Part shown: positions 23,501 to 24,128 of the stretch, in pieces
Layout: each line of letters begins with the position of its first letter
Numbering within the stretch: the first letter of the stretch is position 1
Assembly (NCBI RefSeq): GCF_002854065.1
Contig: NZ_CP024147.1
Direction: 5' to 3' (one strand)
DNA: 64,000 bases
DNA from: Escherichia coli
GTDB taxonomy: Bacteria; Pseudomonadota; Gammaproteobacteria; Enterobacterales; Enterobacteriaceae
Made by a program: the position numbers

Positions 23501-24128
23501 GCAAGGCAGTCATGATACAGAGTTTCACAGAGAAACTTAAGCTGTGCGATATCATGTCTTTTGGGTGAGTATTCATCCATAACGCGTCCCCTTCTTAGCG
23601 GTTGAACTAACGGACACCTTTCGGGATGGAAAAAACTTACTGACCTGGACTTGCCCTCTCGTTTGTTAGCTTAACTATAAGCCACTCTTTGCAGGTTTTC
23701 ATCGCATTATTACGAAAAATTACAATTAGGAAGGAAGCGGGACAGGGCTCACTTTTTCATACTAGCACCAACCCGCAGCAGGTAAAAGCAGTTTGCTCGA
23801 ACTGTTCATAACATTTCAGGATTATCGCCAGATGAAATTGGTGACACTAATACCAGGATTGCTCTGAATATGACGTAATAACCGAGGAATGAATAAAGAA
23901 TTACCGCAAATAATTAAGAATAGCCTCTAAATGATTATGGATTATTAAATCTATTAGCGCTACTTAATATAAATTAACTAACAATCAGTATTTTTTATGA
24001 ATTTTATACGTGGTTAATACTGGTTTTCGTATGAGCTCCTGAGTTGGTGGTTCAATTACTCCTTAATGTTCGTAGGTTATGCATAAAAAAGGCCGCTTAC
24101 GCGGCCTTAGTGATTACACGTTGTATCA

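What the first reader, a model, noticed from the sequence alone, without database searches (positions are those of the whole stretch)
23581..24125. Long AT-rich non-coding region upstream of tomB-hha
About 545 bp with no convincing ORF separate tomB from acrB, with marked AT-rich stretches (23870-24000). This is likely the extended regulatory/leader region of the tomB-hha operon, and such AT-rich tracts are typical H-NS targets. No ORF is predicted here, but a small RNA or small peptide cannot be excluded by eye.
Basis: seen in the sequence. Interest (0 to 1): 0.2.

Follow-up and report, generated by a model that had tools for sequence, protein, structure and literature searches.

The report
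Known tomB-hha promoter and upstream spacer
The 545-bp gap between acrB and tomB is an ordinary, already mapped control region (acrB terminator, AT-rich H-NS-bound DNA, an envelope-stress-responsive promoter and an 87-nt leader) and I found no hidden gene in it.

Summary
Window 23581-24125 is exactly the acrB-stop to tomB-start spacer: 545 bp, GC 0.38, with a GC 0.25 core. It has the same length in K-12 and is present in 5408 of 5426 E. coli genomes. In 76 other Enterobacteriaceae species it is 435-559 bp.

Its contents are largely published. They are the acrB intrinsic terminator (24079-24108), an AT-rich stretch marked as H-NS-binding by genomic SELEX, and a CpxR-type direct repeat GTAAT-N5-GTAAT (23709-23723). 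That repeat sits in an 18-mer kept unchanged in most of the 76 species. Downstream lie the sigma-70 promoter ATGAAA-17-TATAGT (23702-23674), a published transcription start that maps to 23667, and an 87-nt leader.

I found no evidence for a small RNA or peptide. There is no Rfam match, no second terminator, no conserved ORF and no other published start site.

Two modest additions come from the comparison. A 14-bp palindrome matching the RcsAB/RcsB box lies about 200 bp upstream of the start; it is well kept in other genera and degenerate in E. coli (23854-23867). The best PdhR-box match in the window is at 23836-23852.

Verdict: real, ordinary, already known.

The parts
24079..24108 (-). Intrinsic terminator of acrB/acrAB: stem AAGGCCGC-GTAA-GCGGCCTT, then a T-run
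   Evidence: The terminator scan found 8 pairs, 6 of them G-C, followed by a T tract. The hairpin is conserved in all genera, with changes on both arms that keep pairing: GGTCGC/GCGACC in Citrobacter amalonaticus, and GGGCCGC/GCGGCCC in Raoultella, Klebsiella and Kluyvera.
24008..24082 (.). Escherichia-only segment of about 75 bp just after the terminator, with no recognisable feature
   Evidence: These columns are gaps in all non-Escherichia genera, and E. albertii carries a strongly diverged version. The SD-like TAAGGAG followed by TTG gives a 13-codon ORF that is not conserved.
23870..24006 (.). AT-rich core (GC about 0.25) with short conserved islands (AAATCATAAAA, CTTATTGT, TTTATTT, AATAA, TATAAT); presumed H-NS-bound DNA
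   Evidence: Composition comes, and island conservation of 0.7-0.9 across 77 species. The spacer is marked HNS in the genomic-SELEX table of PMC3946193. It is also the target of two independent IS1 insertions, at 23988-23995 and 23939-23947.
23854..23867 (-). RcsAB/RcsB-box-like palindrome TCAGAGCAATCCTG, centred at -193 from the start site; degenerate in Escherichia
   Evidence: It matches 9 of 14 positions of the consensus TaAGaatatTCcta, including all five capital positions (consensus from PMC4325325). The orthologous position scores 11-14 of 14 in 68 of 77 species, while shuffles reach 12 or more in 1.1%. The strict RcsB motif TN(G/A)GAN4TC(T/C)NA occurs there in 39 of 77 species against 0.6 expected. 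In E. coli alone a relaxed form of that motif (last base A or G) is no rarer than chance: 7 matches in the window against 8.6 expected.
23836..23852 (+). PdhR-box-like sequence AATTGGTGACACTAATA (12 of 14 specified positions)
   Evidence: It is the best match to AATTGGTnnnACCAATT in the whole window. tomB-hha is listed as a direct PdhR target (PMC3265435). The site is not conserved outside Escherichia.
23796..23819 (-). Conserved island of unknown role (majority form CTAAC-N4-ATGAAT-N3-TAAGGA)
   Evidence: Column frequencies are 0.7-0.9 across genera. The ATG is not preceded by a Shine-Dalgarno sequence and the downstream peptides differ between genera.
23709..23723 (-). CpxR-type tandem repeat GTAAT-TTTTC-GTAAT, at -56 to -42 from the start site, inside the 18-mer TTGTAATTTTTCGTAATA (23708-23725)
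   Evidence: The pattern GTAAW-N5-GTAAW occurs 2 times in the window against 0.35 expected. The exact 18-mer is present in 60 of the 80 related loci. The repeat is kept in Cronobacter and Pantoea and nearly kept in an Erwiniaceae contig. tomB and hha are CpxR targets in RegulonDB and tomB is in the CpxR iModulon (PMC7657598). In Yersinia, CpxR~P binds the equivalent ymoBA site 56 bp upstream of TSS2 (PMC13353760).
23674..23702 (-). Sigma-70 promoter of tomB-hha: -35 ATGAAA (23702-23697), 17-bp spacer, -10 TATAGT (23679-23674)
   Evidence: Found by the promoter scan. The same hexamers appear under an RpoD holoenzyme SELEX peak in PMC3946193. TATAGT lies within 130 nt upstream of tomB in all 76 species.
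23667..23667 (-). Transcription start site of tomB-hha (A)
   Evidence: The published E. coli start site is at 480019(-) in old K-12 coordinates, with an 87-nt 5' UTR and upstream sequence ...GGCTTATAGTTAAGCTA. The K. pneumoniae orthologue has a 97-nt UTR and the same -10 (PMC3415461 supplementary file 2). This maps to window 23667.
23581..23667 (-). 87-nt 5' leader of tomB, with conserved CCATCCC (23623-23629, possible anti-SD) and Shine-Dalgarno AAGGGGA (23587-23593)
   Evidence: Conservation is shown. RNAalifold keeps only UCCC:GGGG as a consensus helix in the leader, with no covariation, at -5.5 kcal/mol overall. The single-sequence fold has z = 0.02 against shuffles.

Best explanation
The spacer is a composite, non-coding control region read on the minus strand.

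1. The acrAB transcript ends at a conserved hairpin terminator about 20-45 nt after the acrB stop.
2. About 370 bp of AT-rich DNA follow. This DNA binds H-NS in vitro and probably sets a repressed or insulated baseline for the next operon. It carries a few short conserved operator-like islands. The clearest is an RcsB/RcsAB-type palindrome about 200 bp upstream of the start site. E. coli also has a PdhR-like box beside it.
3. A CpxR-type direct repeat at -56 to -42 sits next to a weak -35 (ATGAAA) and a good -10 (TATAGT). This arrangement lets phosphorylated CpxR raise tomB-hha transcription under envelope stress.
4. Transcription starts at window 23667 and gives an 87-nt leader with a strong Shine-Dalgarno sequence.

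Shown by tool results or published data: the boundaries, the terminator, the promoter hexamers, the start site, the H-NS SELEX mark, and the conservation of each element. Inferred: the H-NS role in vivo, direct CpxR action at this exact repeat in E. coli, and any Rcs or PdhR action at the named boxes.
For: Spacer anatomy and composition come, and the terminator.

The promoter scan agrees with the published RpoD SELEX peak, hexamers and HNS mark. The published start site gives an 87-nt UTR in E. coli and a 97-nt UTR in Klebsiella from the same -10. A sigma-S ChIP peak also covers the core promoter.

In Salmonella only the proximal fragment of three tested drives GFP.

The CpxR repeat is supported by statistics and conservation, by the RegulonDB and iModulon listing, and by Yersinia EMSA and reporter data with the same geometry, 56 bp upstream of TSS2. 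tomB is induced 6-11 fold by a LolCDE inhibitor, an envelope stress.

The RcsB-like box is conserved well above its flanks and above shuffles.
Against: A ChIP-exo study did not list tomB among direct CpxR targets under its conditions.

The E. coli copy of the RcsB-like box matches only 9 of 14 positions, and a relaxed form of the motif is no rarer than chance in this window. No paper found in the searchable library reports Rcs control of tomB.

The H-NS high-affinity motif TCGATAAATT is not enriched in the spacer.

The published PdhR SELEX peak maps inside acrB, not in the spacer.

IS1 and transposon insertions in the AT-rich part are tolerated, and Erwiniaceae manage with a 143-bp spacer. Much of the upstream DNA may therefore be dispensable.
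Confidence: 0.85

Rival explanations
1. Only the proximal 150 bp or so (CpxR repeat, promoter, leader) and the terminator are functional. The roughly 350-bp AT-rich middle is neutral filler that drifts and accumulates AT, and its conserved islands have no regulatory role.
For: Most of the middle is poorly conserved, and about 75 bp are Escherichia-only. The Salmonella upstream fragment p622 had no promoter activity. IS1 and mini-transposon insertions are tolerated there. Erwiniaceae have only 143 bp upstream of tomB. The E. coli RcsB-like box is degenerate.
Against: Spacer length is held at 435-559 bp across many genera. Several islands reach column frequencies of 0.8-0.9 while their flanks sit at 0.3-0.5. 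The palindrome varies only at the two positions the RcsB motif allows to vary. H-NS binding in this spacer is published.
Confidence: 0.3
2. The spacer hides an unannotated small RNA or small protein gene.
For: The spacer is unusually long. Short ORFs exist: 21 aa at 23702..23637 (-), 40 aa at 23689..23811 (+), and a 15-codon ATG ORF starting at 23809 on the minus strand. A conserved ATG lies in the island at 23796-23819.
Against: There is no Rfam match above noise. The only terminator is acrB's. The ATG of the 21-aa ORF is the -35 hexamer, and the frame is broken by stops and indels in other genera. Peptides after the conserved ATG differ between genera and have no Shine-Dalgarno sequence. The published start-site table lists nothing between the tomB start and acrA. 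K-12 RefSeq annotates nothing here.
Confidence: 0.04
3. A second, upstream promoter (TTTACC-16-TGcTAGTAT, 23786-23759, minus strand) also drives tomB-hha. It would give a leader of about 170 nt that contains the CpxR repeat, as with TSS1 of Yersinia ymoBA.
For: Yersinia has two start sites 82 nt apart, with the CpxR motif between them. A TAnnnT hexamer aligns at this position in the Escherichia, Citrobacter, Salmonella and Klebsiella sequences shown. E. coli has an extended -10 TG there (read directly from the sequence).
Against: The site is below the promoter scan's threshold (8 of 12; one search does not list it). Only one tomB start site is listed for E. coli and for Klebsiella. The element is absent in the Enterobacter and Lelliottia sequences.
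Confidence: 0.12
4. The leader controls translation: the conserved CCAUCCC (23623-23629) pairs with the Shine-Dalgarno GGGG(A) and masks it, for example in a temperature-dependent way.
For: CCATCCC and AAGGGGA are both nearly invariant across genera. UCCC:GGGG is the only consensus helix RNAalifold keeps in the leader. Hha/YmoA biology is temperature-linked, which I state from general knowledge.
Against: The helix is 4 bp and invariant, so it offers no covariation. Total consensus energy is -5.5 kcal/mol. The E. coli leader folds no better than shuffles, with z = 0.02. The conserved blocks could equally be protein or sRNA binding sites.
Confidence: 0.12

Closest known systems
tomB-hha (ybaJ-hha) promoter region of E. 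coli K-12 as recorded in RegulonDB and the genomic-SELEX literature
   Same: It is the same locus with the same 545-bp length and only 5 substitutions. It has the same -35/-10, the same start site and 87-nt UTR, and the same listed regulators CpxR, PdhR and H-NS.
   Different: Nothing substantive differs. None of the window's 5 substitutions falls in the terminator, the CpxR repeat or the promoter. One of them (23804) changes ATGAAT to ATGAAC in the island of unknown role.
ymoBA promoter of Yersinia pseudotuberculosis
   Same: It is the orthologous operon. A CpxR motif lies 56 bp upstream of the proximal start site, against 56-42 bp here. CpxR~P binds it and raises promoter activity.
   Different: Yersinia has a second mapped start site 82 nt further upstream and a 106-nt proximal leader. 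No second start site is listed for E. coli. I did not fetch the Yersinia sequence.
RcsAB box / RcsB box operators (cps, flhDC, rprA, osmB, ytfK)
   Same: It is a 14-bp pseudo-palindrome with (G/A)GA-N4-TC(T/C). In most genera it matches TaAGaatatTCcta at 11-14 of 14 positions. Far-upstream placement has precedent, with osmB at -215 and ytfK at -161.
   Different: No binding or regulation data exist for tomB. The E. coli copy keeps only 9 of 14 positions. RcsB boxes that act alone usually sit next to the -35.
H-NS-silenced AT-rich upstream regions (for example proU, bgl, hlyE)
   Same: The GC is far below the genome mean, H-NS binding is published, and the region is a target for IS insertion.
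   Different: The downstream promoter is still detected as active in standard conditions (53 reads). No high-affinity H-NS motif is present. The regulated product, Hha, is itself an H-NS partner, so any feedback is conjecture.

Membership tests
Sigma-70 promoter | -35 and -10 hexamers close to TTGACA/TATAAT with a 17 +/- 1 bp spacer | tested here: met
   ATGAAA-17-TATAGT matches 9 of 12 positions. TATAGT lies within 130 nt upstream of tomB in all 76 species.
Sigma-70 promoter | A mapped transcription start 6-8 nt after the -10, and RNA polymerase binding | tested here: met
   The published start is the A 7 nt after TATAGT, with an 87-nt UTR. An RpoD holoenzyme SELEX peak lies in this spacer.
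CpxR box | Tandem pentamers GTAAA-N5-GTAAA (written TTTAC-N4-8-TTTAC on the other strand) | tested here: met
   GTAAT-N5-GTAAT matches 4 of 5 in each half with the correct spacing. It sits at -56 to -42, and the consensus is quoted.
CpxR box | Binding of CpxR~P and Cpx-dependent expression | not testable with these tools
   The literature is mixed. Support comes from the RegulonDB listing, the iModulon and the Yersinia EMSA. Against it, tomB is not among the ChIP-exo direct targets.
RcsAB / RcsB box | 14-bp TaAGaatatTCcta, or TN(G/A)GAN4TC(T/C)NA | tested here: inconclusive
   The E. coli copy matches 9 of 14 positions with all five capitals, but fails the strict motif at the last base, and a relaxed form occurs at chance frequency. 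Orthologues match 11-14 of 14 in 68 of 77 species, and the strict motif occurs in 39 of 77 against 0.6 expected.
RcsAB / RcsB box | RcsB (with or without RcsA) binding and Rcs-dependent expression | not testable with these tools
   No report was found. The only indirect hint is tomB induction by a LolCDE inhibitor.
H-NS target region | AT-rich DNA well below the genome GC | tested here: met
   GC is 0.38 overall and 0.25 in the core, against 0.52 for the window.
H-NS target region | High-affinity nucleation motif TCGATAAATT (motif recalled from memory) | tested here: not met
   The spacer holds only one match with 2 mismatches, so there is no enrichment.
H-NS target region | H-NS occupancy | not testable with these tools
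   A published genomic-SELEX table marks the spacer HNS. I did not find in vivo ChIP data.
Intrinsic terminator | G+C-rich hairpin followed by a U-run, conserved with compensatory changes | tested here: met
   
PdhR box | AATTGGTnnnACCAATT with the core GGTnnnACC | tested here: inconclusive
   It matches 12 of 14 positions and is the best match in the window, but the core reads GGTnnnACT. It is Escherichia-only. The published SELEX peak lies in acrB.
Small RNA gene | Own promoter and start site, own terminator or stable structure, and conservation or an Rfam family | tested here: not met
   
Small protein gene | A start codon with a Shine-Dalgarno sequence and a reading frame kept across relatives | tested here: not met
   

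The most novel reading that the evidence does not exclude
The deeply conserved RcsB/RcsAB-type palindrome about 200 bp upstream of the tomB start site is a working operator. In that case the Hha/TomB module, which supplies a co-factor of H-NS silencing, would receive input from the Rcs phosphorelay as well as from Cpx across Enterobacteriaceae. The site would be decaying in Escherichia, where a PdhR-like box has appeared beside it.
Probability: 0.25. Interest if true: 0.3.

Novelty: already known. Interest (0 to 1): 0.12.

Why it matters
For the scan, this closes the item. The long gap is not a missed gene but the documented control region of tomB-hha.

Hha is a partner of H-NS in silencing horizontally acquired and virulence genes, so what controls its promoter has some biological weight. 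The comparison shows which parts of that promoter region are under constraint. These are the terminator, the CpxR repeat with the core promoter (kept even in Erwiniaceae, where the upstream gene differs), blocks of the leader, and a far-upstream RcsB-like palindrome.

The palindrome is a cheap, testable lead on a possible second envelope-stress input. The natural IS1 variants, one of which deletes the promoter, are ready-made material for such tests.

Tried and rejected
- Rfam scan at E <= 10 over 22800-24400: only noise, terminator-like hits under gathering scores.
- 21-aa ORF 23702..23637 (-) as an upstream ORF: rejected. Its ATG is the -35 hexamer, it becomes GTG in many genera, and the frame hits stops and indels.
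- A GTG upstream ORF in the leader that overlaps the tomB start: it stops after 3 codons in other genera (read).
- Leader structure: the single-sequence fold has z = 0.02, and the alignment fold keeps only a 4-bp anti-SD:SD helix in the leader, without covariation.
- H-NS motif TCGATAAATT: not enriched.
- PdhR: the published SELEX 'box' for tomB maps inside acrB (window about 24578), not in the spacer. A better-matching site exists at 23836-23852 but is unverified.
- By-eye tries at IHF, Fis, Fur, ArcA, CRP, sigma-E, sigma-54 and PmrA matches in the conserved islands gave nothing convincing, and I did not pursue them.
- Start-site supplements of two other papers were not available, and neither were the supplements of the Salmonella RcsB paper.
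- sRNA/Hfq literature search on tomB: nothing relevant.
The Yersinia comparison therefore rests on the paper's numbers.

Full report
**The observation**

On the minus strand, acrB occupies 24126..27275 and tomB 23206..23580. hha follows 25 nt after tomB. The flagged interval 23581-24125 is therefore exactly the 545-bp spacer between the acrB stop and the tomB start.

Its GC is 0.383 against 0.524 for the whole window. The stretch 23870-24000 has GC 0.25, and only 0.07% of equally long windows in the 64 kb are as AT-rich. In the 50-kb K-12 neighbourhood it is the longest of 41 intergenic spacers, where the median is 128 bp and the next longest is 245 bp.

The ORFs of 20 aa or more inside it are 21, 24, 40 and 44 aa.

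The region is neither absent nor shorter in relatives.
- K-12 MG1655 has the same 545 bp (480709-481253) with five substitutions and no annotated feature.
- 5408 of 5426 complete E. coli genomes carry it nearly full length.
- The window is closest (99.8%) to a 5.6-Mb cattle strain, which suggests an O157-like background.
- A genome-collection scan with TomB returned 80 loci from other species. In the 76 where both genes were on the contig, acrB is always the upstream neighbour and the spacer is 435-559 bp with GC 0.35-0.40.

**Anatomy from comparison (minus strand, 5' to 3')**

A MAFFT alignment of 77 spacers shows sharp islands of conservation in an otherwise fast-evolving sequence.

1. The acrB terminator (24079-24108). 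It is an 8-bp G+C-rich stem followed by a T-run. It is kept in every genus, with paired substitutions that preserve the stem.

2. About 75 bp found only in Escherichia (24008-24082).

3. The AT-rich core (about 23870-24006), with short islands conserved at 0.7-0.9.

4. A 14-bp palindrome. In most genera it reads TAAGAATATTCCTG/A or TAGGAATATTCCTA.

5. A second island, CTAAC-N4-ATGAAT-N3-TAAGGA (23796-23819), of unknown role.

6. The 18-mer TTGTAATTTTTCGTAATA (23708-23725). The exact sequence is present in 60 of the 80 related loci.

7. ATGAAA-17-TATAGT (23702-23674), which the promoter scan also reports.

8. A leader with conserved blocks, ending in the Shine-Dalgarno sequence AAGGGGA.

**Link to published data**

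The promoter is documented. Shimada et al. list an RpoD-holoenzyme genomic-SELEX peak in the tomB<acrB spacer. They give the predicted promoter as ATGAAA-17-TATAGT and mark the spacer as containing H-NS binding sites (PMC3946193).

The start site is also mapped. Kim et al. place the E. coli tomB start at 480019(-) in old coordinates, with an 87-nt 5' UTR and the upstream sequence ...GATGAAAACCTGCAAAGAGTGGCTTATAGTTAAGCTA. That is the A at window 23667, 7 nt after TATAGT. In Klebsiella pneumoniae the orthologous start uses the same -10 and gives a 97-nt UTR. No other start is listed between it and acrA (PMC3415461 supplementary file 2). A sigma-S ChIP peak assigned to tomB covers the same promoter.

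In Salmonella, three candidate promoter fragments from the 1 kb upstream of tomB were tested. Only the proximal one drove GFP (PMC5133643).

**The CpxR repeat**

The conserved 18-mer contains GTAAT-TTTTC-GTAAT at -56 to -42. This matches the CpxR tandem repeat (GTAAA-N5-GTAAA) at 4 of 5 positions in each half with the right spacing. The pattern occurs twice in the window against 0.35 expected.

tomB and hha are CpxR targets in RegulonDB, and tomB belongs to the CpxR iModulon. The same ChIP-exo study did not count tomB among its direct targets, which is a caveat (PMC7657598).

In Yersinia pseudotuberculosis the orthologous ymoBA promoter has a CpxR motif 56 bp upstream of its proximal start site. 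CpxR~P shifts that fragment, and constitutive Cpx activity raises promoter activity (PMC13353760). The geometry matches the one here.

The repeat and a -10 at the same distance also survive in Cronobacter, in Pantoea and, as GTAAT-N5-GTAAG, in an Erwiniaceae contig. In the two Erwiniaceae loci the upstream gene is not acrB and the spacer is only 143 bp. The proximal 150 bp or so are therefore the old, constrained core. The long AT-rich part belongs to the acrB-tomB junction of Enterobacteriaceae.

**The palindrome**

It matches the RcsAB box TaAGaatatTCcta (PMC4325325) at 11-14 of 14 positions in 68 of 77 species. Its position is fixed, 205-237 bp upstream of the start site, or 134 bp in three species with short spacers. 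Shuffled spacers reach 12 of 14 or more in 1.1% of trials.

The structure-based RcsB motif TN(G/A)GAN4TC(T/C)NA (PMC7913699) occurs there in 39 of 77 species against 0.6 expected. Between-species variation falls mainly on the two positions that motif leaves free. The species are related, so these counts are not independent. The contrast with the poorly conserved flanks is the real argument.

In E. coli the site is TCAGAGCAATCCTG (23854-23867). It matches 9 of 14 positions and keeps all five strongly conserved positions. Taken alone it is no better than chance: a relaxed form of the motif, allowing A or G at the last base, occurs 7 times in the window against 8.6 expected.

I found no report of Rcs control of tomB. 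The 6-11-fold induction of tomB by a LolCDE inhibitor fits either Cpx or Rcs. This is a lead, not a finding.

**PdhR**

tomB-hha is cited as a direct PdhR target. The later genomic-SELEX peak and its proposed box lie inside acrB, at window about 24578. The best PdhR-box match of the whole window (12 of 14) is in the spacer at 23836-23852, two bases from the palindrome. It is Escherichia-specific.

**Is anything hidden?**

I found no evidence for it.
- Rfam gives nothing above noise.
- acrB's terminator is the only terminator.
- The 21-aa ORF starts at the -35 hexamer and is not kept.
- The conserved ATG in the 23796-23819 island has no Shine-Dalgarno sequence, and the downstream peptides differ between genera.
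- The leader folds no better than shuffles (z = 0.02). Its only consensus helix is a 4-bp, invariant CCC:GGG-type pairing between CCAUCCC and the Shine-Dalgarno sequence.
- A weak extended -10 candidate (TTTACC-16-TGcTAGTAT, 23786-23759) would parallel Yersinia TSS1. It has no start-site support in E. coli or Klebsiella.

**Verdict**

The finding is real and correctly read. It describes a control region that is already mapped, so it counts as already known and of low interest. The useful residue is a precise parts list and one testable lead, the RcsB-like operator.

Noticed in passing
window 23939-23947 and 23988-23995; locus L089 (strain TUM13773): Independent IS1 insertions sit in the AT-rich core of the spacer in two clinical E. 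coli strains, with 9- and 8-bp target duplications. In a third strain, IS1 replaces window 23638-24017. That removes the CpxR repeat, the -35/-10 and the tomB start site, and leaves 57 bp upstream of tomB.
   Followed up: partly
window 54505-54519 (+): A perfect CpxR consensus GTAAAAGTCCGTAAA lies in the divergent copA(-)/glsA(+) spacer, about 90 bp upstream of the copA start.
   Followed up: partly
window ~23295 and ~23196 (inside tomB and the tomB-hha gap), from published K-12 coordinates: The published start-site table lists two further starts for hha, 115 and 16 nt upstream of its start codon. hha may therefore also be transcribed independently of the tomB promoter.
   Followed up: no
window ~24578-24594 (inside acrB): The PdhR 'box' that the genomic-SELEX paper assigns to tomB (AAcgGaatcgACCAgcT, 8 of 14) lies about 450 bp inside the acrB coding sequence. 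A 12-of-14 match sits in the spacer at 23836-23852.
   Followed up: partly
loci L083, L084 (Erwiniaceae): tomB-hha is preceded by an uncharacterised 117-aa gene instead of acrB. The spacer is 143 bp, and the CpxR-like repeat abuts or overlaps that gene's stop codon.
   Followed up: partly
proteins P0005, P0008, P0010, P0026, P0027, P0039, P0046, P0048: Several assemblies predict TomB-Hha fusion proteins of about 201-205 aa carrying both PF10757 and PF05321. This would need loss of the tomB stop plus a 1-nt frame change in the 25-nt gap. They could be sequencing errors or real variants.
   Followed up: no
window 23804: One of the five differences from K-12 falls in the conserved island of unknown role. 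The window reads ATGAAC where K-12 and most genera read ATGAAT.
   Followed up: no
K-12 acrB-tomB spacer (literature): In a long-term competition experiment, a mini-transposon carrying DARS1 inserted in this spacer was among the clones selected. This shows that insertions here are tolerated (PMC5010248).
   Followed up: no
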